Of a DNA stretch of 64,000 bases, positions 48,044 through 64,000 are shown piece after piece. Below the pieces are notes generated by a model that had not been told where the DNA came from, did no database searches, and saw only the letters and a list, made by a program, of their open reading frames with translations. This DNA comes from an uncultured Lachnospiraceae bacterium (GTDB taxonomy: Bacteria > Bacillota > Clostridia > Lachnospirales > Lachnospiraceae): positions 91,059-155,058 of the forward strand of contig CAJKGK010000001.1 of assembly GCA_905199445.1 (NCBI GenBank). Reading direction: 5' to 3'. A program made the translations under genes and the position numbers. How positions within the stretch are numbered: the first letter of the stretch is position 1; each line of letters begins with the position of its first letter.

Positions 48044-48088
48044 TTAAAAAAATCCTCTCATGCTGCACCAGGCAGTCTGAGAGGATTT
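48044..48088 (-). terminator. intrinsic terminator after GH36::PGM gene
   Basis: 9-bp stem ATCCTCTCA/TGAGAGGAT (48052-48060 / 48078-48086), followed on the minus strand by T7-8. Confidence 0.6.
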
Positions 48089-48116: not shown

Positions 48117-50549
48117 TTATTCGCAGATTCCCATTAAATCTCCAAATGTTTTCATGCTGTATGTTGCTTTTTCATAGGATGAAGCATCACCGATGGCCGC
48201 GCTGTCAAAACCTCCGGCGCAGGCGCCGTCGACGCCGGCGTAGGCATCTTCTACAACCAGACAGTCTTCAGGATTTTCACCGATAAACTGAGCGGCTTTA
48301 ATAAACACTTCCGGGTCTGGTTTGGAGTTTGTAATATTATTGCCGTCAGAAACAGCATCAAAATAGCCTTTAAGTCCGATTCTCTCAAGAATAAACTGTG
48401 TATTCTTGCTGGAAGAACCGATGGCCAGCTTTAAGCCTTTGGCTCTTAAGCCATCCAGTGTTTCTTTAACTTCAGAACTTAAATCTGCAGGACTCATATT
48501 TTTCAGAAGTTCCTTGTAAACGCCGTTCTTTTCCTCAGCCAGAGCAACTTTTTCATCCTGAGTTAAAGGTTTGTCATATTTTTCAAGAATAATTTCAAGG
48601 CTTTCCATACGGCTCACACCGCGCAGACGATTATTGATCACTTCATCAAAATAGATGCCCAGTTTATCAGCAACCGTTTTCCATGCCAGATAATGATAAT
48701 GATCTGTAAAACAAATCACACCGTCCAGATCGAAAATAACACCTTTGTATTTTTTGCTCATTGTTTCATCCTCCTCAATTAATTCAAATATCCATGCCCT
48801 TTGGGGGCCGCTGCTCACCAAAAATCCTGTTTCCATCAACGCTTTACCGCTGCTTTGTCCGTTAAATATGCCGTCTCTGTCCACAATCCGGTAAGTCCGT
48901 GCAGGATCAAGTGCCTTTGGCTTTACAATGACCTGCTTTTCGCAAAAATCACGCATACAGAAAACAAACAGCAGTTGTCTGCCCTCAGCATGTCCGTCCA
49001 TACCTGCATATTGGAGCACCATACAGCCCCGGGCATTTTGCAGATGAAAAAGTCTGGCCCGGCGGATCACAGGACGAACGACTGTTTTATAATAGTGGAT
49101 CTCCTGTCTGAAAATATCCCGGTTTCTTTCCGACATAGACGCAAAATCTCTGGAAAAGCCCAGCGCATGAGGCATGGCTGCCCTGATGGTATACCGGATC
49201 AGATCCTGAGGCGTGTCCTCACGGATTTCAAACCCCGGAAACGCCTGGCTGCCATCGTCATAGGTTCTTGTCTGTGACCAGGCCCAGTGAAGAATATGCT
49301 CTGGCGGAATAAATCTGGACAGCTCATAAAAGCTGTTCAGACTGTGTCCGGTTTCATCCACATCACTTAAAAAAGTCTGGTTCACACAGGATAATAGACC
49401 GATATCACAGCGCAGTCCGCCGGATGCACAGTTTTCCAAAGTCAGCTGTGGATATTTATTTTTTATCTTATTCAGTATATCATAATAACCCTGATAATGC
49501 CAGAACAGACCGTCCTTCTCGTGATGATTATGATCCATCCGGCTGCAGCCTGCACCAGGATCCATATTAAAATCCAGTTTCATCCAGTCACAGCCTGACG
49601 TCTCTATCATTTTGCAAAGCATTTGAAAAAGCCATTGAGCCGCCGAATCATTGCCCAGACAAATATATGGATTTTCATAATGTTTACCCTCACTGACAGC
49701 TTCAAATTCCGGATGGCTGCCAATCAGCCGGGAATCCTGTCCGATGGCCTCCGGTTCCATCCAAAGTCCAAATTTCATATTCATCTCATGGAGTTTTTTG
49801 GAAATGTAAGCAAGGCCGTGAGGAAAGCGCTGTTCATTGACCATGGCCCAGTCACCCTGCTGCCGGCTCCAGTGAATATTTCCGGGTCTGCCATACCACC
49901 CTGCATCCAATGTGCATAATTCCACCCCCATCGCCTTTGCAGCAGCTGCATTTTCAAGAAATACATTTTCATTAATCAGGGCATCCTCAAATGTCCACCA
50001 GTGATTCCATTCCACAGGCAATTCGCCGGCTTCCGGATATAAATAGCTGCGCCCATAGTCATGAAGCTTTTGTGTCAGACAATCCCAGTCACCGTCCCAG
50101 GCCTGAAAAATATACACAGCCGGAAATTTAAAACAACCGGCTTGTCCATCTTTTGTCTGAATCTCATCCTGCGTATGCGTATCATCATATTTTTTAGGCA
50201 GAACCCTGATATCAGGCAGCCCGACTTCTATGGTACCATGGCCGTCAATTTCCACATACCAGGTACCGGACCAGGCCACCAGCACAGACAGAATATGTCC
50301 CGAATCAGAACTGATTCTGAAAAAGGGATGAACGCCGTGACTGGAACGGCCAGTCGTACACGTCATATTAAACGTCTCCCCGGCCTTCCATTTAAACTGC
50401 TGAGGCTCAAATTCCCGGCCCCAGCTGCTTTTGTAATAATCGATGGTATATTCCTGCCCACACACCAAAAGGCCGCAGGCCTGGCAGCAGTCATTACCGC
50501 TGCCTTTTGTTTCAAAGTTTAACCTTATCAAATCTTCTTTGTAACACAT
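48117..50549 (-). CDS. in-frame fusion: GH36-family glycosidase domain (48762..50549) + beta-phosphoglucomutase HAD domain (48117..48761)
   Basis: GH36 signatures CDWMKLDFNMD (nucleophile region) and ENCASGGLRCD (acid/base). C-terminal 214 aa MSKKYKGVIFDLDGV...SKPDP...VEDAYAGV matches beta-PGM (pgmB). No stop between the domains. GAGGAGG lies 8 nt before the internal ATG at 48761. Confidence 0.8.
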   Translation of the reverse strand: MCYKEDLIRLNFETKGSGNDCCQACGLLVCGQEYTIDYYKSSWGREFEPQQFKWKAGETFNMTCTTGRSSHGVHPFFRISSDSGHILSVLVAWSGTWYVEIDGHGTIEVGLPDIRVLPKKYDDTHTQDEIQTKDGQAGCFKFPAVYIFQAWDGDWDCLTQKLHDYGRSYLYPEAGELPVEWNHWWTFEDALINENVFLENAAAAKAMGVELCTLDAGWYGRPGNIHWSRQQGDWAMVNEQRFPHGLAYISKKLHEMNMKFGLWMEPEAIGQDSRLIGSHPEFEAVSEGKHYENPYICLGNDSAAQWLFQMLCKMIETSGCDWMKLDFNMDPGAGCSRMDHNHHEKDGLFWHYQGYYDILNKIKNKYPQLTLENCASGGLRCDIGLLSCVNQTFLSDVDETGHSLNSFYELSRFIPPEHILHWAWSQTRTYDDGSQAFPGFEIREDTPQDLIRYTIRAAMPHALGFSRDFASMSERNRDIFRQEIHYYKTVVRPVIRRARLFHLQNARGCMVLQYAGMDGHAEGRQLLFVFCMRDFCEKQVIVKPKALDPARTYRIVDRDGIFNGQSSGKALMETGFLVSSGPQRAWIFELIEEDETMSKKYKGVIFDLDGVICFTDHYHYLAWKTVADKLGIYFDEVINNRLRGVSRMESLEIILEKYDKPLTQDEKVALAEEKNGVYKELLKNMSPADLSSEVKETLDGLRAKGLKLAIGSSSKNTQFILERIGLKGYFDAVSDGNNITNSKPDPEVFIKAAQFIGENPEDCLVVEDAYAGVDGACAGGFDSAAIGDASSYEKATYSMKTFGDLMGICE

Positions 50550-52891
50550 TCTCCGTCTTTCAGAACAACTGCCTCGTGTCCCAGAATAAAGGAAACTTCC
50601 GGTCCGTTGCTTGTTACTGTTACCTGCTCATGATCTACAGTTACATGAAGCGGTGTGCCTCTCCATACAATGTTAAAGTCCAGCTGGGACCATTCCTCAG
50701 GCAGAGACGGTGCAATTCTTAAATCGCCGCCAACAATGCGGACACCGCCAAAGCCCAGAACTGCGGACTGCCATACACCACCCATAGACGCACTGTGAAT
50801 ACCTGCGTTGGAAGAACGCATTTCTTCTCCCAGGTCTACGGCACTGGCACCAGTAAAGAACTTATACGCCACTTCGTGAAGCCCCAGGTCATTGGCCAAA
50901 ACACTGTGGGTAGATTTACTCAGAGAGGAATCATGAAGGGTACGTTCTTCATAATAGAAGTAATTTTTCTTCTTTGTCTCTGCATCAAACAAATCATCCA
51001 GCAAATACATAAGAACAACCAGGTCGCTCTGCTTCAATACCTGCATACTGCTGATCTGTTCCATATTATAATCATTGTAGATCGTTCCAACAACAGAGCT
51101 TTCCTTATACTTTGTCAAATCAATATGCTTCAGATTGAAGTAACCGTCAAACTGAGGAATAATGCCCGTTGTCTTATCCGGCAAAGGCAGATAAAACTTA
51201 GGCAGACGACTGTTGATAATTGTCTTTAACTCATCCAGATGAAGGGTTTTGTTCAGCCGCTCAAATACGCTGCGTTTTTCCTGAGAATCGCTTTCTCTCA
51301 GCTGATCCATTAATTTTACAGCCAGGTTCATATTATAGTGCGCCAGGTAATTTGTGTAGGCATTATTGTTGACATGCTCGGAATATTCATCCGGTCCGAT
51401 CACATCATTGATTTCGTAACGATTAAGGCTTTCATTCCATTCCAGACGGCTTGCCCAGAATCTGGCTGTTTCCATAATAATTTCATAACCGTACTGATCC
51501 ATAAAGTTTTCATCATGCGTTGCATTGTAGTACTGCCATACAGCAAAGGCAATATCGGCAGAAATATGCTGCTCAATCAGTCCGGTGAGAATCGGAAGGG
51601 TTTCACCGGTAACCACATCGGCTTCACCCCAAAGTGGTGTCACCTCACCATCATCAATCCATGCAGATTCCCATGGATACATGGCACCGTCATAACCATT
51701 TTCGGCAGCCTTTTTACGGGCGCCGCCCAGTGTCTGATAACGGTATTCAAGAAGTGTACGTGCTGTATGTGGCTGTGTCATCATATAATATGGAAGAATA
51801 AATACCTCTGTATCCCAGAAGGAATGACCTTTATAGCCCTCACCGCTCATACCTTTGGCGCCGATACCTACTCTGTTATCGTCCTTTTTAACCATAATAT
51901 TCAAATGATAAATGGCAAAACGGATAGCCAGCTGGTCAAACGGATGAACCGACTGAATTGTAATATCTTCTTTTTCCCAGATTTTAGCCCATGCATTGGC
52001 ACTTTCTTCCATCAATGCATCATAACTGGACTGATACACATCCATAATGGCCGCCTTACTGTCTGTCTTTAACTGAGCAAGAGCATCCGCTTCGGACAGA
52101 TCACGGTAAGCCAGGTCTCTTGTGGTATGTACCGTAGCATATTTTTCCACGCAGAAAGTCTCTCCTGCTTTCACAGTCAGGTCTGCACTCAGTTTGATTT
52201 CGCGGCGGCTGATCACTGGCAGCAGTGCCGGTGTTACTTCCTCACCGTTTAATGCGAATTTATGGGCGCAGTGCATGGCTGCCGTCACATTAGACTGAAT
52301 TGTAGTGGAGATCATTTCCAGGTACTTGTAGTCATACAGACGGCGCTTACCTTCGGCAAAATGCTGGGAACCGCTGTTGGAAACCCGGCCATCAATACCG
52401 CTGGCAATCTTTAAGCTGATATCTTCGTTGACAGGACAAATGGTTACCTTGTAAGCCATGACATGATCATTGGCCATGGATGCCATATGTTTAAACTCAA
52501 AACGAATCCGCTTTCCGTCTTCGCTTTCCCAGTCAACCAGACGGACAACTTCACCGGTTTTTACATTTAATGTACGTTTATAATCGTGAAGCACACCTTT
52601 TTCCATGGAAAAACGTCTGCCGTCAATCATAAGAACAATTTTTGTCATATCCGGAATATTGGGCAGCTCTGTCACTTCATTTTCATCAAATTTATTAAAG
52701 GTTCCTGTCACAAACAAATTTCTTGTTTCACCGACATACTCTTCCTCAAGCGCACTGCGTACCCCAAGGTAGCCGTTTCCCTGACAGAAAATCGCTTCAC
52801 ATTTTCCAAGATATCTTGCGTCAAAGGATGATTCCTCAACAAGCCAGTTGGTTAAATCGCCGCTGCCGGCATCATATTTCATAATTGGCAT
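50528..52891 (-). CDS. GH65 glycoside phosphorylase (kojibiose/nigerose/maltose phosphorylase type)
   Basis: GH65 catalytic-region motif AKGMSGEGYKGHSFWDTE. Start at MPIMKYD (52891) after GAGAGGAG. Confidence 0.9.
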   Translation of the reverse strand: MPIMKYDAGSGDLTNWLVEESSFDARYLGKCEAIFCQGNGYLGVRSALEEEYVGETRNLFVTGTFNKFDENEVTELPNIPDMTKIVLMIDGRRFSMEKGVLHDYKRTLNVKTGEVVRLVDWESEDGKRIRFEFKHMASMANDHVMAYKVTICPVNEDISLKIASGIDGRVSNSGSQHFAEGKRRLYDYKYLEMISTTIQSNVTAAMHCAHKFALNGEEVTPALLPVISRREIKLSADLTVKAGETFCVEKYATVHTTRDLAYRDLSEADALAQLKTDSKAAIMDVYQSSYDALMEESANAWAKIWEKEDITIQSVHPFDQLAIRFAIYHLNIMVKKDDNRVGIGAKGMSGEGYKGHSFWDTEVFILPYYMMTQPHTARTLLEYRYQTLGGARKKAAENGYDGAMYPWESAWIDDGEVTPLWGEADVVTGETLPILTGLIEQHISADIAFAVWQYYNATHDENFMDQYGYEIIMETARFWASRLEWNESLNRYEINDVIGPDEYSEHVNNNAYTNYLAHYNMNLAVKLMDQLRESDSQEKRSVFERLNKTLHLDELKTIINSRLPKFYLPLPDKTTGIIPQFDGYFNLKHIDLTKYKESSVVGTIYNDYNMEQISSMQVLKQSDLVVLMYLLDDLFDAETKKKNYFYYEERTLHDSSLSKSTHSVLANDLGLHEVAYKFFTGASAVDLGEEMRSSNAGIHSASMGGVWQSAVLGFGGVRIVGGDLRIAPSLPEEWSQLDFNIVWRGTPLHVTVDHEQVTVTSNGPEVSFILGHEAVVLKDGECVTKKI

Positions 52892-52905
52892 ATTATAAAC
52901 TCCTC

Positions 52906-55188
52906 TCATCTTTTATAGATCAATTCAAATTCACGCGCATCGCATACAGTGCCGGACACACAAGACACCCCGTTGATGGTAAACGGACAGTCAAGTTCCA
53001 CACAAACCGGTTTTCCGGATGTATTTGTGACTTTAATTTTCATGCCCTGATCACACAGCTGTGCTTCCATCGACATTTCACCGCCAAAAACTTTCACATG
53101 TTCCATGGATGCCTGATTCCATTTCGATGGCAAACAAGGTTTTAATATAACCTGATCCAGGCTGGCACTTGGCTGAATTCCAAAGAAATGGCGAACAACC
53201 GGAAGCATCACACCATAGGTTGTCCATGCCTGCACAAAGCAGCCGTAATCTGGAGACATTTCCGAAATCGAGCCCGGTGTCGCCATACCAAAGGTTCCAA
53301 AAATCCGCTCAATAAGCTCTAAAGCCCGGTCAGCATAACCGTACTGCGCCTGCGCTACCGCCATAACACCGGTAGAAATGGTCATAGCGGCACTCTGACA
53401 CATGGCATCCAGATACATACCATGAGGTCCTATAAAGTCTGAAGTATGCATATTGGCAAGCGCACGTTCCGCCTGAGCCTTTGTGGCAATGCCTGTTTCC
53501 AGAGGAACATTGATGACCCAGTTACGGTTTAACAGCCAGCCCTTTTCCTTATTACCGTCATTTTTACGTTCTTCAAAAAGCCGTTCCACATAAGCCTTAA
53601 TATGGGCACACTGGGCGGTCTCAAGCATTTCCATAATCATGGCCTTTTTATTTTCAAGAGCTCCATAGGAGGTATAGGCATCACAGTACAGGCCCTCTTC
53701 CTCATTCCAAAGCAGGGTGTTAATGGCATCCTTTGTTTTATCGGCTAAAGCCCCACACTCTGATGCCATGGCCTGTAAACGGGCAGCCTGATTTTCTCCG
53801 GTATAAGCACCTTTTCCAGCCATGAGTGCACACATTTTACCATAGCATTCATAGGCTTCGCATGTATATACAGCCGTATCGATCAATTCCATGTTCAGGC
53901 CGGCAATTTCAATGATTCCATAACCTGTAGGGAATAAATCGTGATCATCATCCTGAGCCTTGAGCCACTCAATGCTCTTGCCCATGTATTCAAAGGCTTC
54001 TTCCACAAGAGAGAAATCTCCGGTCCATTCATAATATTTCCAGATCATTGTAATAAAATGAGCGGTTTCCTGAGTGTTGCCGTAGTTGGGGCACACTTCA
54101 TTGGTGAGAATTTCATGAACAATACGGCCATTGCCGTTATATTTAATGGAATAATCCAGAATCAGCTTCAGTGTATCCCTGCAAAGCTGATAATCACCCA
54201 TGCAAAGCACACCCTGAAGGGTATAAAAGCTGTCGCAGCCAAACCACCATGGGTATTCAGGAATACCGGCAGCAATTCCCCGGTTTCCGTTGGAAGTAGC
54301 CGTTGTCAGCCAGTCTGTATGAACCTTAACCCAATTGAAAATCTCATTAAAACGGGCATCCGGTGTACTCAGGCTGCTGGTCTTAAAAAGAGACTCATAG
54401 CGGGCCTTTTTTTCAGCCTCAAAATCTCTTTCCATTTCCAGCTGCTCATAAGCCTGGCGAACCTGTTCAAAGGATGTGTCTGAACCGGAAATATAAAATT
54501 TCATTTGACGGCTTTTTCCGGGTTCCAATGTAAAATGATGGGTCATGCCCACGCTGATGCCGTTGCCCACTGTATTTTCCGGTCCAAAAAACTGACCATG
54601 ACGGATTTTGTCAGCCGGTGTGTCACAGCCGATCGCCACATACCATGAATGATCACAGTCTTTGGCCACAAATACAGGCTGATCGCCATCCATGCAGTTT
54701 TCATCCAGACTGCCACAACAGATCAGATCATCCGAAGCGCCGTCAAAAATTCCCGCATCCTCAGACATCCATACCGGACGCAGATCCGTGCGGGCTACAA
54801 ATTCTGTTGTACATTCACAGGCATTTGAACCTGCATTGTAAAATTCATAGGTGACAATGACACCCAGCACGTCATCAGGAACGATTTGGGTACGGCGGAT
54901 TTTTACGGTTGTATGTCCCAGCCCGTTATTGTACAAAAATTCATTTTTATGTGGATAATTCATAAACTGATCCGCATGGGTCCAGCAGTCCACCGTTTTT
55001 GCTGTATGATCTGTAAAGCGAAGCCAGAAGCCATCCAGCAGTTTCACCGGGTAGAGCCAGAGTCCACCCATCTCATTTTCCAGATGATGTCCGAAATCAG
55101 GGAAATAGCCATCGGTTGTACCGATCAGTTTCATGCGCTCATTGGCACATACATATTGAGGACGCGTACAGCGTACAGAAGCTTTCAT
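52906..55188 (-). CDS. (alpha/alpha)6-barrel glycoside hydrolase, GDE_C/GH63-like (putative alpha-glucosidase)
   Basis: 760 aa. No family-specific motif was matched; the six-hairpin GDE/GH63-like assignment rests on length and on its position between GH65 and the ABC importer. AAAGGAG RBS 7 nt before the ATG. Confidence 0.55.
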   Translation of the reverse strand: MKASVRCTRPQYVCANERMKLIGTTDGYFPDFGHHLENEMGGLWLYPVKLLDGFWLRFTDHTAKTVDCWTHADQFMNYPHKNEFLYNNGLGHTTVKIRRTQIVPDDVLGVIVTYEFYNAGSNACECTTEFVARTDLRPVWMSEDAGIFDGASDDLICCGSLDENCMDGDQPVFVAKDCDHSWYVAIGCDTPADKIRHGQFFGPENTVGNGISVGMTHHFTLEPGKSRQMKFYISGSDTSFEQVRQAYEQLEMERDFEAEKKARYESLFKTSSLSTPDARFNEIFNWVKVHTDWLTTATSNGNRGIAAGIPEYPWWFGCDSFYTLQGVLCMGDYQLCRDTLKLILDYSIKYNGNGRIVHEILTNEVCPNYGNTQETAHFITMIWKYYEWTGDFSLVEEAFEYMGKSIEWLKAQDDDHDLFPTGYGIIEIAGLNMELIDTAVYTCEAYECYGKMCALMAGKGAYTGENQAARLQAMASECGALADKTKDAINTLLWNEEEGLYCDAYTSYGALENKKAMIMEMLETAQCAHIKAYVERLFEERKNDGNKEKGWLLNRNWVINVPLETGIATKAQAERALANMHTSDFIGPHGMYLDAMCQSAAMTISTGVMAVAQAQYGYADRALELIERIFGTFGMATPGSISEMSPDYGCFVQAWTTYGVMLPVVRHFFGIQPSASLDQVILKPCLPSKWNQASMEHVKVFGGEMSMEAQLCDQGMKIKVTNTSGKPVCVELDCPFTINGVSCVSGTVCDAREFELIYKR

Positions 55189-55247: not shown

Positions 55248-56090
55248 TCAGCCCTTTGTTCCTGAAGAAATAGAAATACCATCAATGATATATTGCTGTG
55301 CAATAAAGAACAGAATCAGAATCGGCAGCATCACAAGCAGCGTGGCAGCCATCAGCTGATTCCACTGGCTGGTGTACATTCCCTTGAAGAAGGAAAGTCC
55401 CAGGGACAACGTAAACTTCTTGCTGTCATACAGATAAATCAACGGTCCGTTAAAGTCATTCCATACACCCATGAATGTGAAAATAGAAACCGCTGTCAGA
55501 ACAGGTTTGCACATCGGAAGAATGATTTTCATAAATACTTTAAAAGGACCGGCGCCGTCCATACGTGCGGCTTCGTCAAAATCTTTAGGAATACCGGACA
55601 TATATTGACGCAGAAGGAAAATATTAAAGGCACCGCCGCCGAAAAAGGCCGGTACAATTAATGGAAGGAAGGTATCGACCCATCCCATCTCACGGAATAC
55701 AAGGTACTGAGGAATCATGGTGATCTGTCCTGGAAGCATCATGGTTGCCAGAAGAATTAAAAACCATACTCTCTTACCTTTAAAGTTAAATCTTGAAAAA
55801 CCATAAGCCACAATCGATGAACTCAAAACCGTACCGATCAGTACAGGAATAAGAATAATCAGCGTATTTCTTAAATATAAGAAAAACGGAATCGACGTGA
55901 TGGCTTTTGCAAAGTTTTCAAAATGAAGCTCTGTCGGGAAAAATTTCATACTGAAAACTTCCGAATCCGGCTTTAAGGCCATACTGATCGTCCACAACAG
56001 GGGAATCATAATAATGACCGCACCTACGAGAAGAATCAGCATCGCTACCCAGCGCATAATTATATTGGCGTAACTTTTCTTTGCTTTCAT
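55248..56090 (-). CDS. carbohydrate ABC transporter permease (MalG-like)
   Basis: 280 aa, 6 TM, EAA loop (DEAARMDGAGPFKVF). Confidence 0.85.
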   Translation of the reverse strand: MKAKKSYANIIMRWVAMLILLVGAVIIMIPLLWTISMALKPDSEVFSMKFFPTELHFENFAKAITSIPFFLYLRNTLIILIPVLIGTVLSSSIVAYGFSRFNFKGKRVWFLILLATMMLPGQITMIPQYLVFREMGWVDTFLPLIVPAFFGGGAFNIFLLRQYMSGIPKDFDEAARMDGAGPFKVFMKIILPMCKPVLTAVSIFTFMGVWNDFNGPLIYLYDSKKFTLSLGLSFFKGMYTSQWNQLMAATLLVMLPILILFFIAQQYIIDGISISSGTKG

Positions 56091-56110
56091 TATCTTCGTA
56101 CCTCCATTGA

Positions 56111-57031
56111 TCAGATTTTGTCGTCGTTCTGGTAATATACCCAGAAGCTGGAGCTTTTAATAACAAGCAGTGAGAATACCATGATGATGGCAAACATAAT
56201 CCAGGCCATGGCAGCCGCATAACCCATTTCGTAATCTTTATAAGCTGTTGTATATAATAACAGATTATAGAATAAGGTTGATTTTAACGGACCACCTTCG
56301 GTCATAACAAAAGCCTGAGTAAAATACTGGAAGGAACCGATCACGGCCATAATCACATTAAAGAAAATTGTAGGCGAAATCAGCGGAATCGTAATCTTGA
56401 AAAAAGTCTGAATGGAATTGGCGCCATCGATGGCAGCGGCTTCCTTAACTTCTTCACTCACACCCTGAAGACCAGATAAGTAAATAATCATCGTATTACC
56501 GATTCCCCATACGCCCATAATAATCAGCGCATATAATGCTGTATTGGGATTATTCAGCCATGCGGGGCCCTGGATACCAAACAGTTTCAATGCCTGATTT
56601 AACAGACCGGATTCTCCGAAAATCTGGATCCAGATCATGGAGGATGCGATCACAGGGATAATGGAAGGAAGGAAATATACAAGGCGGAAAGCCTTCATAA
56701 AACGAATACGCATATTTAATAAAAGCGCAATGATCAATGACATAATCTGATAAAACGGGATGGATATCAGACAAAATGTAAATGTGACTTTTAAAGACTG
56801 ATAAAAATCAGGATCCTTAAACAGCTTTGTATAATTTTTAACTCCGATAAAATCTACCGTGCTCAGACCGGTCACAATATCCCAGTCACAGAAAGACAAT
56901 ACAGCGGAAAAAATCATGGGAATCAGTGTAAACAGGAAAAATCCCAGAATCCACGGAAGGACGAACATATAACCGTATTTATTGTCTTTTTTCTGCTCGG
57001 CACTTACAATACCTTTATTTTTCTTTTTCAC
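56111..57031 (-). CDS. carbohydrate ABC transporter permease (MalF/UgpA-like)
   Basis: 306 aa permease with EAAAIDGAN. Confidence 0.85.
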   Translation of the reverse strand: MKKKNKGIVSAEQKKDNKYGYMFVLPWILGFFLFTLIPMIFSAVLSFCDWDIVTGLSTVDFIGVKNYTKLFKDPDFYQSLKVTFTFCLISIPFYQIMSLIIALLLNMRIRFMKAFRLVYFLPSIIPVIASSMIWIQIFGESGLLNQALKLFGIQGPAWLNNPNTALYALIIMGVWGIGNTMIIYLSGLQGVSEEVKEAAAIDGANSIQTFFKITIPLISPTIFFNVIMAVIGSFQYFTQAFVMTEGGPLKSTLFYNLLLYTTAYKDYEMGYAAAMAWIMFAIIMVFSLLVIKSSSFWVYYQNDDKI

Positions 57032-57164
57032 AGAAAAACCCTCTTTCTATTTTTTCACCTGGTCTCAAAAGGGGATTCCTCATTTATCGTAATCATGTTT
57101 TTAACGTTTAAATGAAGAATCCCCTCTAAATTCAATATTCAGGCCAGTACTTTAATTTCCTGAA

Positions 57165-58541
57165 TTATTCCATTTCAGCCATTTCAGCTTTAACTTCTGC
57201 AACTGTGTTGTCAAGAATTGTCTGTGTATCGGCTGTGTGGAAAATAATATTTTCGAACATTTCCTTAATCTTTGTATTGATGACGCTGCCCATTGTGGAA
57301 CGCATACCAATTGGCTGTACACTTGTATCTAACGCCTGTACATAAGCTTTTTTGGAGTCTTCCAGAGATGTTTCAAGCTCATCCAGTTTGGCTTCACTTG
57401 TAGGCAATACCTTGTTCACTTCAGAACGAACATCGGACGCATGCTCAGATGTCATGAATTTAACAACTTCCCATGCAGCTTCAGGGTTCTTACAGTTAGC
57501 GCCGATGGCAAAACCGGATGCACACAGGTAGGATGTGTGATTTCCGGGAACAAGAGCCATACCAAAGTTTGTGCCCGCGTCTTCCAGTGTCTTCTTATCC
57601 CAGCCGCCGCTGACAAACATTGCCAGCTTGCCTTCTGTCATCATTGCTGTGGCATTACCAAATGTATCAAGGTCAGCTGCTGCAGGAGATACTTTGCCCG
57701 GTTCTTCTGCCATTGCAAAATATTTGTCCAGAGCCTCTGCAACTTCAGGGCTGTTTAAGTAACCGTCACATTCTGTACCGTCTTCATTCATGAAGTTTAA
57801 ACCTAAAGATTCAATATAAGTCAGCACCGCATATTCCCAGTTCTGAGCATTAAAGCCGTACTGTTCATATGTACCGTCATCATTTTTAACGGTCAGTTTT
57901 TCGGCTGCTGCAAATAAGTCATCCCATGTCCAGTCATTTGTAGGGTATTCAACGCCTGCTGCATCGAACATATCTTTATTGTAATACAGGGTGATCGGGT
58001 TTTCATCGCTGACCATGTAATGCTGCTGTCCGTTCACTTTACCCATGTTTAACAGGGAATCCGGAAGAGACTGTGTATATTCTGTATCAGCTGCCATCAG
58101 ATCATCCATAGGTGTTGTCAGACCTCTGTCAACCCATTTAAAGAAATCACCTTCACCGGAAGCAAAGATATCGTAGCCATCTCCGGATGAGAAGGATGTT
58201 GTCAGACGGTCGCCATAACCATCTCCTGGTACAAGGTCAAAAACAACTTCAATATTTTTATCATTTGTTTCATTAAACTCATCAATCAACTGCTGATCGG
58301 CTGCACCATCGGCTGTTGTTCCCCAGCGTGTCAGACGAATTGTGATCTTTTCGCCATTATTTTCAGCTTTGGCTTCAGTTTCACCGGCTGTATCCTTCGC
58401 AGCCTCGCTGCCTGTTTCTGTAGCTGCATTGCCAGTGGTTTCTCCTTTTGTCTCTGTTGTGCCATTGGAACTGCCGCATCCGGCCAGTACGCTCGCTACC
58501 ATTGTTGCGGATAATACACCTGCAAGAATTCTGCCTTTCAT
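57165..58541 (-). CDS. carbohydrate ABC transporter substrate-binding lipoprotein
   Basis: Signal peptide with LAGCGSS lipobox, family-1 SBP. AGGAGG RBS. Confidence 0.85.
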   Translation of the reverse strand: MKGRILAGVLSATMVASVLAGCGSSNGTTETKGETTGNAATETGSEAAKDTAGETEAKAENNGEKITIRLTRWGTTADGAADQQLIDEFNETNDKNIEVVFDLVPGDGYGDRLTTSFSSGDGYDIFASGEGDFFKWVDRGLTTPMDDLMAADTEYTQSLPDSLLNMGKVNGQQHYMVSDENPITLYYNKDMFDAAGVEYPTNDWTWDDLFAAAEKLTVKNDDGTYEQYGFNAQNWEYAVLTYIESLGLNFMNEDGTECDGYLNSPEVAEALDKYFAMAEEPGKVSPAAADLDTFGNATAMMTEGKLAMFVSGGWDKKTLEDAGTNFGMALVPGNHTSYLCASGFAIGANCKNPEAAWEVVKFMTSEHASDVRSEVNKVLPTSEAKLDELETSLEDSKKAYVQALDTSVQPIGMRSTMGSVINTKIKEMFENIIFHTADTQTILDNTVAEVKAEMAEME

Positions 58542-58953: not shown

Positions 58954-59970
58954 TCACGGACATGCTTTGACGGTGGCTCTTTTAATAAAATTGTAATCCA
59001 CATACACATGACCATATGTTTTTTTATCCTTGATCATACGAAACAGCAGTTCACCGCCGATTCGCCCTGTCATATACGGAGACTGGGCCACGGTTGTCAG
59101 ACCACCATTGATATATTTAGCCGCCGGAATATCGTCAAAGCCCACAACAGACACATCATCCGGCACCTGAAGTCCTTTTTCATTGAGTGCCCGAATCACA
59201 CCAACAGCCATCAGGTCACTGGAACAAAAGATGGCCGTCATCCCCGGGCAGTTATCCAACAGCCGGAATGTAGCCTTATAGGCGCCTTCTTCGTCAAATT
59301 CACCGTTCTCAATCCACATATCATCGGTTTCAAGGCCTGCTTCCTCCATGGCCTGCAGATAGCCTCTGCGCCGGCGCTGTGAAACAGTGGCCGTCTCCTT
59401 ACCATTCATCATGGCAATCTTTTTATGTCCCAGGCCAATAAGATAATGAACCACATCATAGGCCGCCTTTGCATTATCGATGGAAAGGCCACAGACATTT
59501 TTGCTTTTATACTCCCCTTCCACAACAACACAGGGAATTTCGCTGTTCATCAGTTCCTTGTAATAAGGTTCATTGGTATTTAAACCTGAAATCAGTACAC
59601 CGTCAATATTTTTCTGACGGCACAGCTGTATGTAGCTAAGCTCACTCTGTCTGGCCGCATTTGTTGTCAAAATGATAAAATCAAAATCATGCTCCAGGGA
59701 AGCCTGATACATTCCACTGATCATACCGAAAACAAAACCACTTTCATCGGTTTCCACCAGACCAGATACAAGAAAGGCCAGGGTTTTCCTTGATCTCCCG
59801 CTTAAGGAGCGGGCATTGGCGTCCGGCATATAATTCAGCCGCCGGGCAATCTCCTGAATTTTCTTCTTTGTTTCAGGGTTTACATCACTGTACCCATTTA
59901 AAGCCTTGGAAACCGTTGTAATGGAAACTCCGGCTTCCCTGGCCACATCTCTTATACCTGCTCTTTTCAT
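58954..59970 (-). CDS. LacI family transcriptional regulator
   Basis: N-terminal HTH_LacI (GIRDVAREAGVSITTVSKALNG) plus a sugar-binding domain. Confidence 0.85.
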   Translation of the reverse strand: MKRAGIRDVAREAGVSITTVSKALNGYSDVNPETKKKIQEIARRLNYMPDANARSLSGRSRKTLAFLVSGLVETDESGFVFGMISGMYQASLEHDFDFIILTTNAARQSELSYIQLCRQKNIDGVLISGLNTNEPYYKELMNSEIPCVVVEGEYKSKNVCGLSIDNAKAAYDVVHYLIGLGHKKIAMMNGKETATVSQRRRRGYLQAMEEAGLETDDMWIENGEFDEEGAYKATFRLLDNCPGMTAIFCSSDLMAVGVIRALNEKGLQVPDDVSVVGFDDIPAAKYINGGLTTVAQSPYMTGRIGGELLFRMIKDKKTYGHVYVDYNFIKRATVKACP

Positions 59971-60140
59971 TTCAATTCACCTTTAATTCTTACTTACTTT
60001 AAAATAAATGCGCCAAAATTCTACATCCATTGAAAATCCTGTGCACTTTTTACACAATAAATATAATACTTTTTATATCTGTATACCTACAAATTATATC
60101 ATAACTTCATCTGATTTGATAATTGTCTATATTTGACGAA

Positions 60141-62003
60141 TTATTTGCCTGTTTCAGAGTCTTTAACCTGAAAATATACGGTATAAACTTCATTTCCGAT
60201 CTCATAGAGTGGTTTAAATTTCAAGCCTACCGGCTGATTCACAGTACGAAAAGCATTGTTCCATCCGCACCATTCCCGCTCTTCATCCACGGTCAGCATG
60301 GTCTGAGGCTGGCTGATATCTCCGTACAGCATATGTTCATGACTGCACAGACCGGCCAAAGCTACCGGACCATCCAGAAACGCCACTGTATCCGGCCGAT
60401 CCGGCAGCGCCTGAGTCCGCAGCTGTTTGGGCAGATGGATGCGTACCTGATCCTGATCCTTCCATGTCCTGCATATCTTCAAAAAACCCCGGTCGTCGGT
60501 CTGTCCGTCAAACGGCTGCCCATTGATCGTCATCACCGGTTTACCGCAAATCCATTCCGGTATACGGATACGAACCGTAAAGTCCACATCTGCCTCCGGG
60601 TCCTCAAGTCCGATTTTAAGCACAGTTTCAAAGGCTGAGGGCCGGGAAAAGTTCCCGCATGCCTCCGGCGTAATCCGGATTGTCTCTCCAGTTTCATTTC
60701 CTGCCACCTGTGTCACCGAAACTTTTTTCCCGTGAACAATCAGTTCTGTTTCCGAAGGCAGATACTGGGCCACAGTAAGCCCCTCCTGATCCTGATAATA
60801 AATGGCCCGATTATGAACGGCATTGGCCTGCAGCAGCGTACAATGGCAGCACCAGAAATCCTCGGTTTCAGATCCCCAGCGTTTTTGTGAGCCTGCCCCC
60901 AGCCCCAAATAATACGCCACCAGGCCCTGCTCCGGCTTTGGACTTTGTCTCAGTTGAAATATGTGATGAGATTCCCAATAGCCCTGGGCAAATATTCCGT
61001 TATAGAGATTTCTCTCCCAGTAATCTGCATACTTGCTTTCTCCGGTCCATCTAAACAAAAACTCTGCCAGCTGCATCATATGAAAAACAACGCAATGTTC
61101 CTGGGTCATCTTCCCCAGACGGGCCGACTGCATCATCGGCGGTGTCCATACCTCTCCGCTGCTCTGACCGCCGGTGACAAAAAACCCCCGCTCGTCCACA
61201 GCCAGACGCCAATAATTTTCCACAATCTTTCTATAACGTTCCTCTTTTGTCACCTCATAAGCCCTGGCTGCCCCCAAAATCTCAGGTACAGTTGTGTTGA
61301 CATGCATATTGGTCAGTACATCCTCTCCCCGAAGTAAAGGCTCAAACAGCCGCGGACGCTCGTATCTGCGCATCAGTTCAAGATGGCGTTCATCTTTAGT
61401 AACCGCATACAGGTTCGCCCAGTGCATCATCATTCCGCCGGTTTCCTGCAGATCCATCATGTCATCCATGAGTTCTCTGGAAATATCACTGGTATACGCA
61501 TAAAACCAGTCTCCGCACTTGAGTACAATGTCCAAAGCCTCTTGATTTCCTGCAAACAAATACATGTCCAAAAGGCCCATCATATTTTTATGGCACACAT
61601 ACTGAGGTGCCCATATATTTTTCTTACGCTTCAGCCAGTACAAATATTTCTCCGGAATTGGAAAAGCCCACTGACCGCCGTTTTCCTTCTGGCATCGTCC
61701 AATCTCTGACACCATAAAATCCGCCTGCTGTTTAATCTGCATATCTCCGGTCTGGGCATAAAGCAATGCCGCTCCGCTAAGCCAGTGCCCTGCAAAAGTT
61801 CCCCGGATCTCACTGGTAGGTGAATCCCACCCCCAGTGAATCCCTTCCGGCTTATATGAATAGGACATCAAGCCAGCCTCAAAATAATGGGAAAACAAAA
61901 TATTTTCCGGTTTCAGGCTAAGCATATAATTTTTATTTCTCTGCGTCCGACGCCACGCCTCCCCATCCAGCAAATGGGTGCTGCCTGCCAGTGAATGAAG
62001 CAT
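60141..62003 (-). CDS. GH127/DUF1680-family glycoside hydrolase (beta-L-arabinofuranosidase-like)
   Basis: 620 aa, length and overall sequence character of DUF1680 six-hairpin hydrolases. Family call is tentative. Confidence 0.6.
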   Translation of the reverse strand: MLHSLAGSTHLLDGEAWRRTQRNKNYMLSLKPENILFSHYFEAGLMSYSYKPEGIHWGWDSPTSEIRGTFAGHWLSGAALLYAQTGDMQIKQQADFMVSEIGRCQKENGGQWAFPIPEKYLYWLKRKKNIWAPQYVCHKNMMGLLDMYLFAGNQEALDIVLKCGDWFYAYTSDISRELMDDMMDLQETGGMMMHWANLYAVTKDERHLELMRRYERPRLFEPLLRGEDVLTNMHVNTTVPEILGAARAYEVTKEERYRKIVENYWRLAVDERGFFVTGGQSSGEVWTPPMMQSARLGKMTQEHCVVFHMMQLAEFLFRWTGESKYADYWERNLYNGIFAQGYWESHHIFQLRQSPKPEQGLVAYYLGLGAGSQKRWGSETEDFWCCHCTLLQANAVHNRAIYYQDQEGLTVAQYLPSETELIVHGKKVSVTQVAGNETGETIRITPEACGNFSRPSAFETVLKIGLEDPEADVDFTVRIRIPEWICGKPVMTINGQPFDGQTDDRGFLKICRTWKDQDQVRIHLPKQLRTQALPDRPDTVAFLDGPVALAGLCSHEHMLYGDISQPQTMLTVDEEREWCGWNNAFRTVNQPVGLKFKPLYEIGNEVYTVYFQVKDSETGK

Positions 62004-62103
62004 ATTTCCCCCGTTCTGGCAGCCTGAAAGCTGCCGATAATTTTAGATTATTTCTATTTTCTTTGATTACAGCTTATTTGTGTTTTTTCACAAGTCTCTG
62101 CGG

Positions 62104-64000
62104 TTAATATCTGTCAGCAGCCGGAAATTCCAGTGTATCTGCCAGCGTATATTCCTGATCATAAATCATCAAGTTCACGGCAGATCCCATTTCCAGGCTG
62201 AATACTGTTTTTTCCTTATCCACACTGACCTTGATATTACTTCCTCTGTAGTGAATTTTAAATGTATAGGCATTCCACTGTACCGGCAGGTACGGAGCAA
62301 AGCACAGACCTTTTTCCTTCAGTCTTAAACCGCCAAAGCCGTAAACAATGGCCATGTAATTGCCGCCCATGTTTGCCGTATGAATACCATCCTTTGTGTT
62401 ATGGTGCAGATTAAATAAATCCAGCTTAGCCGAATCTCCAAAATAGTCATACGCCTTTTCTTTCTCTCCCAGTTTGGAAGCCACAATACTGTAAATACAT
62501 GTGGACAAAGAGGAATCATGGGTTGTGACGGTTTCATAATAAGCAAAAGATTTCCGAATCGTTTCCAGATCCTGTGCATCCTCAAAAATGAAATGCGCCA
62601 AAACCGTATCCGCCTGTTTGCAAACCTGATATCTGTAAATATACAGTGGATGATAATGTAAAAGGAGAGGAAAATGGTCCTTTGGTGTCGCCTTGATGTC
62701 CCACTTTTCCTTCTGAAGGAAGGAATCATCCTGTGGATTAATTCCCAGTTCTTCATCATAGGGCAGATACATCTGTTCCTCGGCCTTTTTAAACCCGTTA
62801 ATTTCATCCTGAGTCAGTCCGATTTTTTCGGCCACCGGCTCAAGTAATCCGGCTTCGTTTAAAATTTCCCAGAAGCGAACCGCCCAATGAAGGTTATACT
62901 GAGCATTGGCATTGGTATAGTAATTATTATTAACAATACATGTATACTCATCCGGGCCGGTCACATCGTTAATCAAAAATCTGCCTTTGTGGAAATTACC
63001 TGTATCCATCCAAAGACGGGCAGTTTCAAATACAATTTCTGCACCCTTTGATGCAATATATTCCAAATCCAGAGTTGCCAGATAATAGGCCACGACCGCA
63101 TAAGCCACATCACCGTTAATATGATACTGTGCAGAACCGGATGGGAAATAGCCGGAACATTCCTTTCCCGAAATCGTACGCCACGGATAAAGGGCCCCCT
63201 TTTTGTGCCCTAAAATTTTTGCATTTTCTCTGGCTGCATCCAGAATTTCGTATCTGAAATCGATCAAATTTCTGGAAATATCCGGATTGGTCAGCGTAAA
63301 AAATGGCTGCATATACATCTCTGTATCCCAGAAATAATGACCTTCATAGCCCTCACCGGAAAGTCCCTTTGCCGCAATATTGCCAAATTTATCTCTGCCT
63401 GCGGACTGAATCAGCTGATACAGATTATAGCGCACCGCTGCTGCCAGCGCATCATCTCCGTCAATATCCAGGTCGGACTGCTGCCAGAATGTCTTTAAAT
63501 AGTCCTGCTGATATTCATACCATCGGGAGAGGGGCACGCAAAGAGCCTGCTCCATGGACGCTTTGGCCGCCTGAATACAGTCATCATGGCGCAGTGAATC
63601 GGTAAACACAGTATATTTTGTCAGCGTCACACTCTGGCCCTGAGATACAGAGCAGTCAATATTCCATGTGACACAATGACCTTCCTGTATCCTATTCATG
63701 GATGCAGGTACAGAACAGACATTTTTCACATAGGTACAAACCTGAAGTCCTGAACTGACAGTATCGGTTGTCAGCACCGAAGCACCCTCTCCGGGAATTT
63801 CAAGGTCATGGGGTTTTAAATGTACAAAGCTTTCACCGGCCACTCTGGGATCATTAGGGTTACAGTAATTTTTCACATCCCCGTTATGGACAGACTTAAA
63901 CGCAAGCGCTCCGGAAAAATTCAGAGCCTTTACCGTATACTCAATAGTAAACAATTCAAGCAGCTCAAAGGATGTCATACGGCGGATACAGATCTCAACC
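62104..64000 (-). CDS. second GH65 glycoside phosphorylase, 5'-truncated by window edge
   Basis: AKGLSGEGYEGHYFWDTE motif. The reading frame stays open upstream of the ATG at 63978 to the window end. The GH65 N-terminal domain looks incomplete inside the window. Confidence 0.8.
   Translation of the reverse strand, partial: VEICIRRMTSFELLELFTIEYTVKALNFSGALAFKSVHNGDVKNYCNPNDPRVAGESFVHLKPHDLEIPGEGASVLTTDTVSSGLQVCTYVKNVCSVPASMNRIQEGHCVTWNIDCSVSQGQSVTLTKYTVFTDSLRHDDCIQAAKASMEQALCVPLSRWYEYQQDYLKTFWQQSDLDIDGDDALAAAVRYNLYQLIQSAGRDKFGNIAAKGLSGEGYEGHYFWDTEMYMQPFFTLTNPDISRNLIDFRYEILDAARENAKILGHKKGALYPWRTISGKECSGYFPSGSAQYHINGDVAYAVVAYYLATLDLEYIASKGAEIVFETARLWMDTGNFHKGRFLINDVTGPDEYTCIVNNNYYTNANAQYNLHWAVRFWEILNEAGLLEPVAEKIGLTQDEINGFKKAEEQMYLPYDEELGINPQDDSFLQKEKWDIKATPKDHFPLLLHYHPLYIYRYQVCKQADTVLAHFIFEDAQDLETIRKSFAYYETVTTHDSSLSTCIYSIVASKLGEKEKAYDYFGDSAKLDLFNLHHNTKDGIHTANMGGNYMAIVYGFGGLRLKEKGLCFAPYLPVQWNAYTFKIHYRGSNIKVSVDKEKTVFSLEMGSAVNLMIYDQEYTLADTLEFPAADRY

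What the first reader, a model, noticed from the sequence alone, without database searches (positions are those of the whole stretch)
48117..50549. GH36 glycosidase fused in-frame to beta-phosphoglucomutase, with a fossil or functional internal RBS
A single 810-codon ORF joins a GH36-type catalytic domain to a complete beta-PGM (HAD) domain. Nine nt upstream of the internal Met (48761) is a perfect GAGGAGG Shine-Dalgarno embedded in codons ELIEEDET. This suggests a recent stop-codon loss that fused two genes, or dual expression as a fusion plus a free PgmB. The beta-PGM would convert the beta-glucose-1-phosphate made by the adjacent GH65 phosphorylase, physically linking a hydrolase to the phosphorolytic pathway.
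Basis: seen in the sequence. Interest (0 to 1): 0.55.

Follow-up and report, generated by a model that had tools for sequence, protein, structure and literature searches.

The report
GH36 glycosidase fused to beta-phosphoglucomutase
In one gut Lachnospiraceae lineage (Catenibacillus-like), the stop codon between the last two genes of a sugar-utilisation operon was lost, so a GH36 glycosidase and a beta-phosphoglucomutase are now one protein; this is a real but fairly ordinary gene fusion.

Summary
Window 48117-50549 (-) is one uninterrupted 810-codon ORF: a GH36 (Melibiase) domain followed by a complete beta-phosphoglucomutase (TIGR01990 equivalog, above cutoff, all catalytic residues present). 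GAGGAGG sits 8 nt before the internal Met597.

It is not an assembly error. The same fused protein appears in more than 50 data blocks from independent runs (NCBI, ENA, Logan). Polymorphism among five copies is 9 synonymous to 1 non-synonymous.

The fusion is derived and lineage-specific. A sister lineage (L041/L042) has ...ELVEEKT-TAA-A-ATG..., that is, separate genes using the same GAGGAG as the pgmB ribosome-binding site, and its GH36 is a pseudogene. Two other relatives have GH65 followed directly by pgmB, with no GH36. More distant relatives have a 590-aa GH36 and no adjacent pgmB.

No other GH36+bPGM protein turned up in 1.84 billion cluster representatives. However, bPGM is fused elsewhere to GH65, GH78-like, GH3, GH95 and esterase domains, and GH36 is fused to a sucrose kinase in AgaSK.

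The neighbouring GH65 carries the phosphorylase signature, so the pathway logic is sound. Whether free PgmB is also made from the internal start cannot be decided from sequence. Modest interest: a new domain combination of a known kind of event.

The parts
48117..50549 (-). Fused ORF of 810 codons (804 from the alternative TTG start at 50531): GH36 glycosidase joined to beta-phosphoglucomutase
   Evidence: identical ORF in L007 and L038-L040
48780..50549 (-). GH36 module (residues 1-590): short N-domain, (beta/alpha)8 barrel and C-terminal beta-sandwich. Nucleophile Asp326 (49572-49574), acid/base Asp382 (49404-49406). Non-canonical Ala216 in LDAGW and Glu292 in YENPY.
   Evidence: Pfam Melibiase 1e-40; alignment to 2XN0; ortholog alignment; coordinates
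48762..48779 (-). Junction or linker, residues 591-596 (IEEDET). This is the natural C-terminal tail of the GH36 gene; no extra residues were added by the fusion.
   Evidence: Unfused orthologs end 3-10 residues after the last strand, and the L009 tail is VEEKT*. AF2 pLDDT is below 50 at 593-597.
48770..48776 (-). GAGGAGG Shine-Dalgarno-like motif embedded in codons E592-E593-D594, 8 nt before the internal ATG. It is homologous to the pgmB ribosome-binding site of the split relative.
48759..48761 (-). Internal ATG (Met597), the ancestral pgmB start codon
   Evidence: All close stand-alone PgmBs (214 aa) start here; L009/L041
48117..48761 (-). Beta-phosphoglucomutase module (residues 597-810 plus stop). 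Catalytic set: Asp607/Asp609 (48723-48731), His619, Arg647, Ser712/Ser714-Lys715-Asn716, Lys743, Glu767-Asp768.
   Evidence: TIGR01990 at 227 bits, above the 189 cutoff; alignment to L. lactis 1LVH; AF2 pLDDT 85-98
48046..48088 (-). Intrinsic terminator closing the operon (hairpin AAAUCCUCUCA...UGAGAGGAUUU followed by a U-run)
   Evidence: Fold of -28 kcal/mol, z = -3.7; coordinates
50528..52909 (-). GH65 glycoside phosphorylase, kojibiose-phosphorylase-like; the expected source of beta-glucose-1-phosphate
   Evidence: Pfam GH65 N/m/C; 3WIQ at 463 bits with GPDEY and HDSSLS conserved (PMC8626586)
52906..55188 (-). GDE_C-like (alpha/alpha)6 protein of unknown specificity; conserved partner of the GH65
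55248..58541 (-). ABC sugar importer: solute-binding protein (57165-58541) and two permeases (56111-57031, 55248-56090)
58954..59970 (-). LacI-family regulator upstream of the transporter genes

Best explanation
This is a genuine, lineage-specific fusion of the last two genes of an oligosaccharide-utilisation operon. The operon order is LacI, solute-binding protein, two permeases, a GDE_C-like enzyme, a GH65 phosphorylase, then GH36::PgmB and a terminator.

In the ancestor, the GH36 gene ended a few codons after its last beta-strand. Its final Glu-Glu codons (GAGGAG) doubled as the ribosome-binding site of pgmB, which began 1 nt after the TAA stop. A small change at that boundary (net -1 nt and loss of TAA) put pgmB in frame. 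The GH36 tail IEEDET now serves as a 6-residue linker.

Inferred function:
- The imported alpha-glycoside is trimmed by the GH36 domain and/or the GDE_C-like enzyme.
- The GH65 phosphorolyses an alpha-glucosyl (kojibiose-type) disaccharide to beta-glucose-1-phosphate plus an acceptor sugar.
- The PgmB domain converts beta-G1P to glucose-6-phosphate.
- The two fused activities are not consecutive steps, so the fusion most likely gives only fixed 1:1 co-expression and co-localisation, not substrate channelling.
- The inherited start signal (strong SD, 8-nt spacer, ATG, weak local mRNA structure) probably still allows some free 24-kDa PgmB to be made alongside the roughly 92-kDa fusion.

Shown: the ORF, the domains, the catalytic residues, reproducibility across assemblies, the split state in a relative, and purifying selection on the fused ORF. 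Inferred: enzymatic activity of each domain, the substrate, internal initiation, and any selective benefit.
For: Domains and catalytic residues are intact.

The fused ORF is reproducible: the exact 804-aa protein is indexed in 51 data blocks, 23 contigs were read from different SRR runs, and there are 7 further 804-aa variants. The NCBI MAG contig L007 carries the same open frame, 99.7% identical with no gaps.

Among 5 independent copies, 9 of 10 variable sites are synonymous, 8 to 1 within the GH36 part.

Split state in relatives: L009/L041 and L042 (two runs) read GAG GAG AAA ACT TAA A ATG. Unfused orthologs end at the same place. All nearest PgmBs are stand-alone 214-aa proteins.

Operon series in relatives:
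- GDEC-GH65-GH36 in Scybalocola, Anaerocolumna and L011.
- GDEC-GH65-pgmB in L043-L046.
- GDEC-GH65-GH36 pseudogene-pgmB in L041.

The GH65 phosphorylase signature is present (PMC8626586).

Start-site evidence: 21 of 23 comparable SD-ATG motifs in the window mark real ORF starts. The 121 nt around the internal start fold less stably than 197 of 200 shuffles, and the SD and ATG are unpaired.

AF2 models the PgmB module confidently (pLDDT 85-98) with a low-confidence linker at 593-597.
Against: No expression or activity data exist.

GH36 appears dispensable in this clade: it is absent in L043-L046 and a pseudogene in L041/L042. It is also the fastest-evolving gene of the module. The fusion could therefore be a nearly neutral accident on the way to GH36 loss.

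The population carrying the fusion is almost clonal (about 99.7% nt identity). The 9:1 synonymous bias rests on only 10 sites, and retention of the SD says nothing about selection on it.

The GH36 -1 subsite differs from characterised alpha-galactosidases (Ala216, Glu292), so its substrate is unknown.

AF2 confidence is low for GH36 residues 376-539. This is probably an effect of the mixed alignment, but that was not checked.
Confidence: 0.8

Rival explanations
1. The fusion is an assembly or sequencing artefact: a missing base or a miscalled stop at the junction, with two separate genes in reality.
For: NCBI's annotation of the same sequence lists only a 214-aa beta-phosphoglucomutase (MFR8317507.1). 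One ENA contig (L008) begins 1 nt before the pgmB ATG.
Against: The L007 DNA itself has the same uninterrupted frame, so the 214-aa entry is an annotation choice. The exact fused protein recurs in 51 data blocks and many independent runs and assemblers. The junction has no homopolymer run that would make a recurrent error likely.
Confidence: 0.02
2. The fusion is a neutral or slightly deleterious accident. The GH36 part is functionally dispensable or decaying, and the only product that matters is PgmB, made from the retained internal start or as a passenger on an inert N-terminal extension.
For: GH36 has been deleted in L043-L046 and pseudogenised in L041/L042, while GH65 and pgmB are kept. 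GH36 evolves fastest in the module. The internal SD-ATG is intact and unstructured.
Against: There is no frameshift or stop in any of more than 50 occurrences. Polymorphism within GH36 is 8 synonymous to 1 non-synonymous. The nucleophile, the acid/base and all clade-invariant residues are retained.
Confidence: 0.15
3. The fusion was selected as a bifunctional enzyme with a real kinetic or regulatory benefit. One possibility is that it joins the GH65 oligomer in a complex, so that beta-G1P is handed directly to PgmB.
For: The fusion is fixed in the lineage. Beta-PGM fusions to glycoside-active enzymes recur in many lineages, including GH65-bPGM. AgaSK is a characterised GH36 fusion to a downstream-pathway enzyme (PDB 2YFN; PMC7688924).
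Against: GH36 and PgmB do not catalyse consecutive steps. The fusion is confined to one shallow lineage, with no independent GH36-bPGM fusion among 1.84 billion representatives. For AgaSK the cited paper proposes, from its 3D model and kinetics, that the kinase domains lie away from the galactosidase active sites without cross-talk.
Confidence: 0.2

Closest known systems
AgaSK of Ruminococcus gnavus E1 (GH36 alpha-galactosidase fused to a sucrose kinase; PDB 2YFN; PMC7688924)
   Same: A GH36 module from a gut Lachnospiraceae bacterium carries, at its C-terminus, an enzyme that processes a product of the same utilisation locus. Syntenic relatives have the two activities as separate proteins. 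The GH36 domain here matches 2YFN at E 1.7e-26.
   Different: The appended domain here is a HAD-family beta-phosphoglucomutase, not an ATP-dependent kinase. The linker is only about 6 residues. The GH36 belongs to a short-N-domain clade with LDAGW/YENPY instead of LDDGW/SRNQY. The pathway partner is a GH65 phosphorylase rather than a sucrose-phosphate phosphorylase.
Beta-phosphoglucomutase fusions present in public protein sets (GH65-bPGM about 990 aa; bPGM with GH78-like, GH3, GH95, esterase or lactonase domains)
   Same: The same bPGM module (47-60% identical) is joined in one polypeptide to a neighbouring carbohydrate-active enzyme, at either terminus.
   Different: None of these has a GH36 partner. 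The GH65-bPGM fusions join consecutive steps, whereas this one joins non-consecutive steps. These are database predictions; I found no published characterisation of them in the library searched.
Stand-alone PgmB of Lactococcus lactis (PDB 1LVH) in maltose/trehalose phosphorylase operons
   Same: All catalytic and cap residues are conserved (149 bits). The gene is associated with a GH65 phosphorylase.
   Different: L. lactis PgmB is a free 221-aa monomer. Here its N-terminus is tethered to a 596-residue glycosidase.
Kojibiose phosphorylase operon enzymes (CsKP, PDB 3WIQ)
   Same: The adjacent GH65 is most similar to CsKP (463 bits) and keeps the general acid and the phosphate-binding Ser-Ser.
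   Different: This concerns the neighbour, not the fused ORF. Substrate specificity of this GH65 is untested, and the locus adds a GH36 and a GDE_C-like enzyme that were not part of the kojibiose phosphorylase comparison made here.

Membership tests
Beta-phosphoglucomutase (TIGR01990, HAD subfamily IA; EC 5.4.2.6) | Whole-domain match to the equivalog model above its curated cutoff | tested here: met
   227.1 bits against a cutoff of 189.4, residues 601-787 covering model positions 1-187 of 187
Beta-phosphoglucomutase (TIGR01990, HAD subfamily IA; EC 5.4.2.6) | DxDG motif: Asp nucleophile (L. lactis D8) and general acid/base (D10) | tested here: met
   FDLDG, with Asp607 and Asp609 aligned to D8 and D10 of 1LVH
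Beta-phosphoglucomutase (TIGR01990, HAD subfamily IA; EC 5.4.2.6) | Remaining core and cap residues (H20, R49, S114, K117/N118, K145, E169/D170; numbering from my knowledge of L. lactis PgmB) | tested here: met
   His619, Arg647, Ser712, Lys715/Asn716, Lys743 and Glu767/Asp768 align. L. lactis K45 is Arg here.
Beta-phosphoglucomutase (TIGR01990, HAD subfamily IA; EC 5.4.2.6) | Interconversion of beta-G1P and G6P | not testable with these tools
   Requires an enzyme assay
Glycoside hydrolase family 36 | Melibiase (beta/alpha)8 catalytic domain match above the gathering score | tested here: met
   PF02065 at 140 bits against 27. GH36N (26.8) and GH36C (20.8) fall just below their cutoff of 27.
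Glycoside hydrolase family 36 | Catalytic nucleophile Asp in the K-x-D motif and acid/base Asp in the GG-x-R-x-D motif | tested here: met
   K324-L-D326 and G377-G-L-R-C-D382 align to KWD(482) and GGGRFD(552) of 2XN0. Both are invariant in 13 orthologs.
GH36 alpha-galactosidase specificity (EC 3.2.1.22) | Canonical -1 subsite residues (Trp336, Asp366, Trp411, Arg443, Lys476 per PMC7688924; DDGW motif) | tested here: not met
   Trp184, Asp215, Trp263 and Lys324 are present. However, the second Asp of DDGW is Ala216, and the position aligned to Arg443 is Glu292. Both changes are conserved across the clade. The protein is filed as GH36; alpha-galactosidase activity is not assumed.
GH65 glycoside phosphorylase (neighbour gene 50528-52909) | General-acid Glu, plus a phosphate site with two consecutive Ser in place of the hydrolase general-base Glu | tested here: met
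   GPDEY and HDSSLS align with CsKP 3WIQ. The criteria come from PMC8626586.
Gene fusion by stop-codon loss between adjacent operon genes | A related locus with the same two genes adjacent, collinear and separated by a stop at the homologous position | tested here: met
   L009/L041 and L042 read ...GAGGAGAAAACT TAA A ATGAGT.... GH36 is a pseudogene in that lineage, however.
Dual expression by internal translation initiation | In-frame start codon with a Shine-Dalgarno at functional spacing, in an accessible mRNA region | tested here: met
   GAGGAGG-8 nt-ATG. In the window, 21 of 23 such motifs mark real starts. Local folding z = +1.96, with SD and ATG unpaired.
Dual expression by internal translation initiation | Two protein species (about 92 kDa and about 24 kDa) from one ORF | not testable with these tools
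   Needs proteomics with N-terminal peptide mapping, a western blot, or ribosome profiling
AgaSK-type bifunctional GH36 | C-terminal ATP-dependent sucrose kinase domain | tested here: not met
   The C-terminal domain is HAD/bPGM. AgaSK is an analogue, not a family that includes this protein.

The most novel reading that the evidence does not exclude
The fusion acts as a 'Rosetta stone'. It ties a large, uncharacterised GH36 clade to a GH65 phosphorolytic pathway for alpha-1,2-glucosides (kojibiose type). The clade has LDAGW/YENPY in place of LDDGW/SRNQY, a short N-domain, and a conserved position next to a kojibiose-phosphorylase-like GH65 and a GDE_C-like enzyme. This would imply that the clade has a glycone specificity other than alpha-galactose. 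In addition, the single ORF would be expressed as two products: the full-length fusion and an internally initiated free PgmB.
Probability: 0.25. Interest if true: 0.5.

Novelty: new variant of a known kind. Interest (0 to 1): 0.3.

Why it matters
The fusion is a clean natural example in which the states of an operon gene pair can be compared across related lineages. The pair is seen separate (with GH36 already a pseudogene in that lineage), fused, and reduced to pgmB alone. It could serve as a small model for how bifunctional carbohydrate-active enzymes arise and whether the inherited ribosome-binding site keeps working.

In practice, it flags an annotation problem: NCBI lists only the 214-aa PgmB for this ORF and gives no GH36 product.

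It also gives a functional hint for an uncharacterised GH36 clade and for a GDE_C-like enzyme that travels with a kojibiose-phosphorylase-like GH65.

It does not change any general principle. Fusions of neighbouring pathway genes are common, and both partners are already known in other fusions.

Tried and rejected
- Sequencing or assembly error: rejected.
- The 214-aa 'beta-phosphoglucomutase' entries in the same 90% cluster as evidence of an unfused allele within the species: rejected. One is an annotation choice on the same open frame (L007). One is a contig that starts at the ATG (L008). One belongs to a different species (L009, 74% nt identity).
- The SD motif as statistically remarkable on its own: rejected (18 of 100 shuffles). 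Its weight comes from homology and position.
- Other GH36-bPGM fusions: none among the top 120 word-index hits, none among 1.84 billion representatives, and none among GTDB species representatives. Apparent upstream extensions of the pgmB matches in L018-L020 are merely open intergenic frames, not fusions.
- Exact mutational path: it can be modelled as a TTAA deletion plus a codon indel, or as a 1-nt deletion plus substitutions. It cannot be resolved because synonymous sites are saturated between the lineages.
- Two scans of the JGI metagenome contigs for the pgmB 5' end, one exact and one degenerate: nothing found.
- Literature searches for GH36/bPGM fusions or a GH36-kojibiose phosphorylase cluster: nothing relevant.
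- Internal sigma-70-like promoter ahead of the PgmB part: nothing above background (29 found against 25.9 expected).
- AF2 model: used only for domain independence. GH36 residues 376-539 were low-confidence, so no fold search was run.
Full report
**Observation**

The minus strand of window 48117-50549 holds one uninterrupted ORF of 810 codons.
- Pfam finds a GH36 catalytic domain (Melibiase, residues 156-491, E 1e-40), flanked by weak GH36N and GH36C matches, and a HAD domain at 601-785.
- NCBIfam's equivalog model for beta-phosphoglucomutase (TIGR01990) matches residues 601-787 end to end, at 227 bits against a cutoff of 189.
- The junction reads ...WIFELIEEDET|MSKKYKGVIFDLDG. GAGGAGG lies at 48770-48776, an 8-nt spacer follows, and the ATG of Met597 is at 48759-48761.

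Gene callers in public data prefer a TTG start six codons in (804 aa), which overlaps the GH65 stop as TTGA.

**Is it more than chance?**

The SD-spacer-ATG pattern alone is not significant: 18 of 100 shuffles give at least one match. Two facts make it meaningful.
- In this window, 21 of the 23 GGAGG-N5-10-ATG sites followed by at least 80 codons sit at the 5' end of their ORF. Only this site and one inside the IF-2 gene are deep inside an ORF.
- Met597 aligns with residue 1 of every close stand-alone PgmB. These are 214 aa, 85-87% identical, and cover 100% of the query.

**Is it real?**

The 90%-identity cluster of this protein holds eight distinct 804-aa variants from NCBI, ENA and Logan assemblies. 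The commonest exact sequence is indexed in 51 data blocks, and 23 contigs from different runs were read.

A 214-aa 'beta-phosphoglucomutase [Catenibacillus sp.]' from an NCBI MAG turned out to lie on DNA with the same open 810-codon frame (99.7% identical, no gaps). The split there is an annotation decision, not a sequence difference.

Five independent copies differ at 10 sites, of which 9 are synonymous (8 to 1 within the GH36 part). This argues for purifying selection on the fused frame, although the sample is small. An artefact is excluded.

**Origin**

A second lineage is seen in two runs (L009/L041 and L042). It is 74% identical at the nucleotide level, and its PgmB is 92.5% identical at the protein level. 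It carries the same gene order but reads ...TTT GAA TTA GTA GAG GAG AAA ACT TAA A ATG AGT... In other words, GH36 ends with a TAA, one spacer base follows, and pgmB starts. The GAGGAG that encodes Glu-Glu at the GH36 C-terminus is therefore the pgmB ribosome-binding site in the split state. The window sequence differs by a net -1 nt and has no stop.

Unfused GH36 orthologs (589-625 aa) all end 3-10 residues after the last conserved strand. The fusion therefore added no linker beyond the native tail IEEDET.

The exact mutational path cannot be resolved because synonymous sites are saturated between the two lineages. It could be a TTAA deletion plus a codon indel, or a 1-nt deletion plus substitutions.

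**Comparative series**
- More distant relatives (Candidatus Scybalocola, Anaerocolumna xylanovorans, a Bacillota MAG) have SBP-permease-permease-GDE_C-like-GH65-GH36 with no adjacent pgmB.
- Relatives whose PgmB is 86-87% identical have ...GDE_C-like-GH65-pgmB with no GH36 at all (L043-L046).
- In L041/L042 the GH36 is split into 182- and 329-aa pieces and lacks about 57 residues, including the LDAGW strand. It is a pseudogene.

GH36 is thus an accessory, repeatedly lost member of this module. The window lineage is the only one in which it is both next to pgmB and intact, and there it is fused.

The block GH65b-GH127-LacI lies downstream of pgmB in L041 but upstream of the transporter genes in the window, so the locus has also been rearranged.

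**Are the domains competent?**

The PgmB part keeps every residue I checked against L. lactis PgmB (1LVH): Asp607/Asp609 in DLDG, His619, Arg647, Ser712, Lys715/Asn716, Lys743, and Glu767/Asp768.

The GH36 part keeps the nucleophile (Asp326 in KLD) and the acid/base (Asp382 in GGLRCD) when aligned to 2XN0. Two -1 subsite positions of characterised alpha-galactosidases differ. The second Asp of DDGW is Ala216, and the residue aligned with Arg443 is Glu292. Both changes are conserved throughout this clade (subsite list in PMC7688924). I therefore file the domain as GH36 but do not assume alpha-galactosidase specificity.

AlphaFold2 was run on a mixed alignment. It models the PgmB module with pLDDT 85-98 and a disordered linker at 593-597. 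pTM is 0.50, so the relative domain arrangement is undefined. GH36 residues 376-539 were poorly modelled, which I attribute to the alignment.

**Pathway logic**

The upstream GH65 is most similar to kojibiose phosphorylase 3WIQ (463 bits). It has the GPDEY general acid and the HDSSLS Ser-Ser phosphate site, which distinguish phosphorylases from GH65 hydrolases. It should release beta-glucose-1-phosphate, the PgmB substrate.

The fused activities are not consecutive steps: the order is GH36, then GH65, then PgmB. The fusion therefore most plausibly fixes stoichiometry and co-localisation rather than channelling substrate. A strong terminator follows the ORF.

**Internal start**

The inherited site looks functional.
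- The SD is strong and the spacing is 8 nt.
- The 121 nt around it fold less stably than 197 of 200 shuffles, with the SD and ATG unpaired.
- No promoter-like signal above background lies ahead of it.

The fusion-bearing population is nearly clonal, so conservation cannot show whether the site is maintained by selection. Dual expression is plausible (I put it near 0.5) but untested.

**Comparison with what is known**

An exhaustive HMMER scan of 1.84 billion cluster representatives found no other protein that matches both domains. It did find the bPGM module fused to GH65 (about 990 aa), GH78-like rhamnosidase-type domains (both orders), GH3, GH95, alpha/beta-hydrolase esterases and a lactonase.

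GH36 itself is known in a fusion with a pathway enzyme. AgaSK of R. gnavus carries a sucrose kinase, and its relatives encode the two parts separately (PDB 2YFN; PMC7688924).

I found no paper describing a GH36-bPGM fusion.

**Verdict**

The finding is a real, derived, lineage-restricted gene fusion. It is a new domain combination of a familiar kind of event, with modest general interest (0.3). Its main value is as a tidy natural series of operon states (gene pair separate, fused, and GH36 lost) and as a pointer to an uncharacterised GH36 clade and its GH65/GDE_C-like partners.

Noticed in passing
window 49902-49907 and 49674-49676 (GH36 residues 215-216 and 292): The whole GH36 clade has LDAGW and YENPY where characterised GH36 alpha-galactosidases have LDDGW and SRNQY (Asp367 to Ala, Arg443 to Glu). 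This suggests a glycone specificity other than alpha-galactose. The clade is auto-annotated 'alpha-galactosidase' in public records.
   Followed up: partly
window 52906-55188 (-): A 760-aa GDE_C-like (alpha/alpha)6 protein has no solved relative (best PDB hit E 0.003). It is nevertheless conserved immediately upstream of the kojibiose-phosphorylase-like GH65 in every related locus. It is probably an uncharacterised glycoside hydrolase type.
   Followed up: partly
L043:3572-6645; L044-L046:3633-6645; L041:5421-7636; L042:1300-3389: In related lineages the GH36 gene between GH65 and pgmB is either absent (L043-L046) or a pseudogene split into 182 + 329 aa with a deletion of about 57 aa (L041 and L042, two runs). 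GH36 has therefore been lost repeatedly from this module.
   Followed up: yes
window 58954-64000 (-) versus L041:7704-12990: The block GH65b-GH127-LacI (82-86% identical) lies downstream of pgmB in L041 but upstream of the ABC transporter genes in the window. This is a rearrangement with a breakpoint right after pgmB. GH65b is cut by the window end.
   Followed up: partly
proteins P0317, P0321, P0323, P0324, P0327, P0332, P0335, P0339, P0349, P0384: Beta-PGM modules 52-60% identical to this one are fused in other organisms to GH65, GH78-like, GH3, GH95, esterase and lactonase domains, at either terminus. No published description of these was found.
   Followed up: partly
L007:4213-6645 (NCBI GCA_047018905.1, JBKXVG010000023.1): NCBI annotation of the identical 810-codon ORF records only the C-terminal 214 aa as beta-phosphoglucomutase (MFR8317507.1) and gives no GH36 product. 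The fusion is therefore hidden in the public annotation.
   Followed up: yes
L008:1-646 (ENA ERZ27279742 k141_145237): This metagenome contig begins exactly 1 nt before the pgmB ATG. That could be a coincidental break, or a graph branch caused by a co-occurring strain with a different upstream sequence.
   Followed up: no
window 3900-3912 (-), inside the IF-2 gene 3582-6443: This is the only other GGAGG-N5-10-ATG motif deep inside a long ORF in the window. It is in frame, 106 codons before the IF-2 stop, and is probably chance.
   Followed up: partly
window 50528-50549: The fused ORF overlaps the GH65 gene. The ATG start overlaps it by 22 nt, and the alternative TTG start overlaps the GH65 stop as TTGA. 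Neither start has a well-spaced SD, so translational coupling to GH65 is likely.
   Followed up: no
window 50135-50203 (GH36 residues 116-138): A lineage-specific insertion (VLPKKYDDTHTQDEIQTKDGQAG) in the GH36 N-domain is absent from most orthologs and has low AF2 confidence.
   Followed up: no
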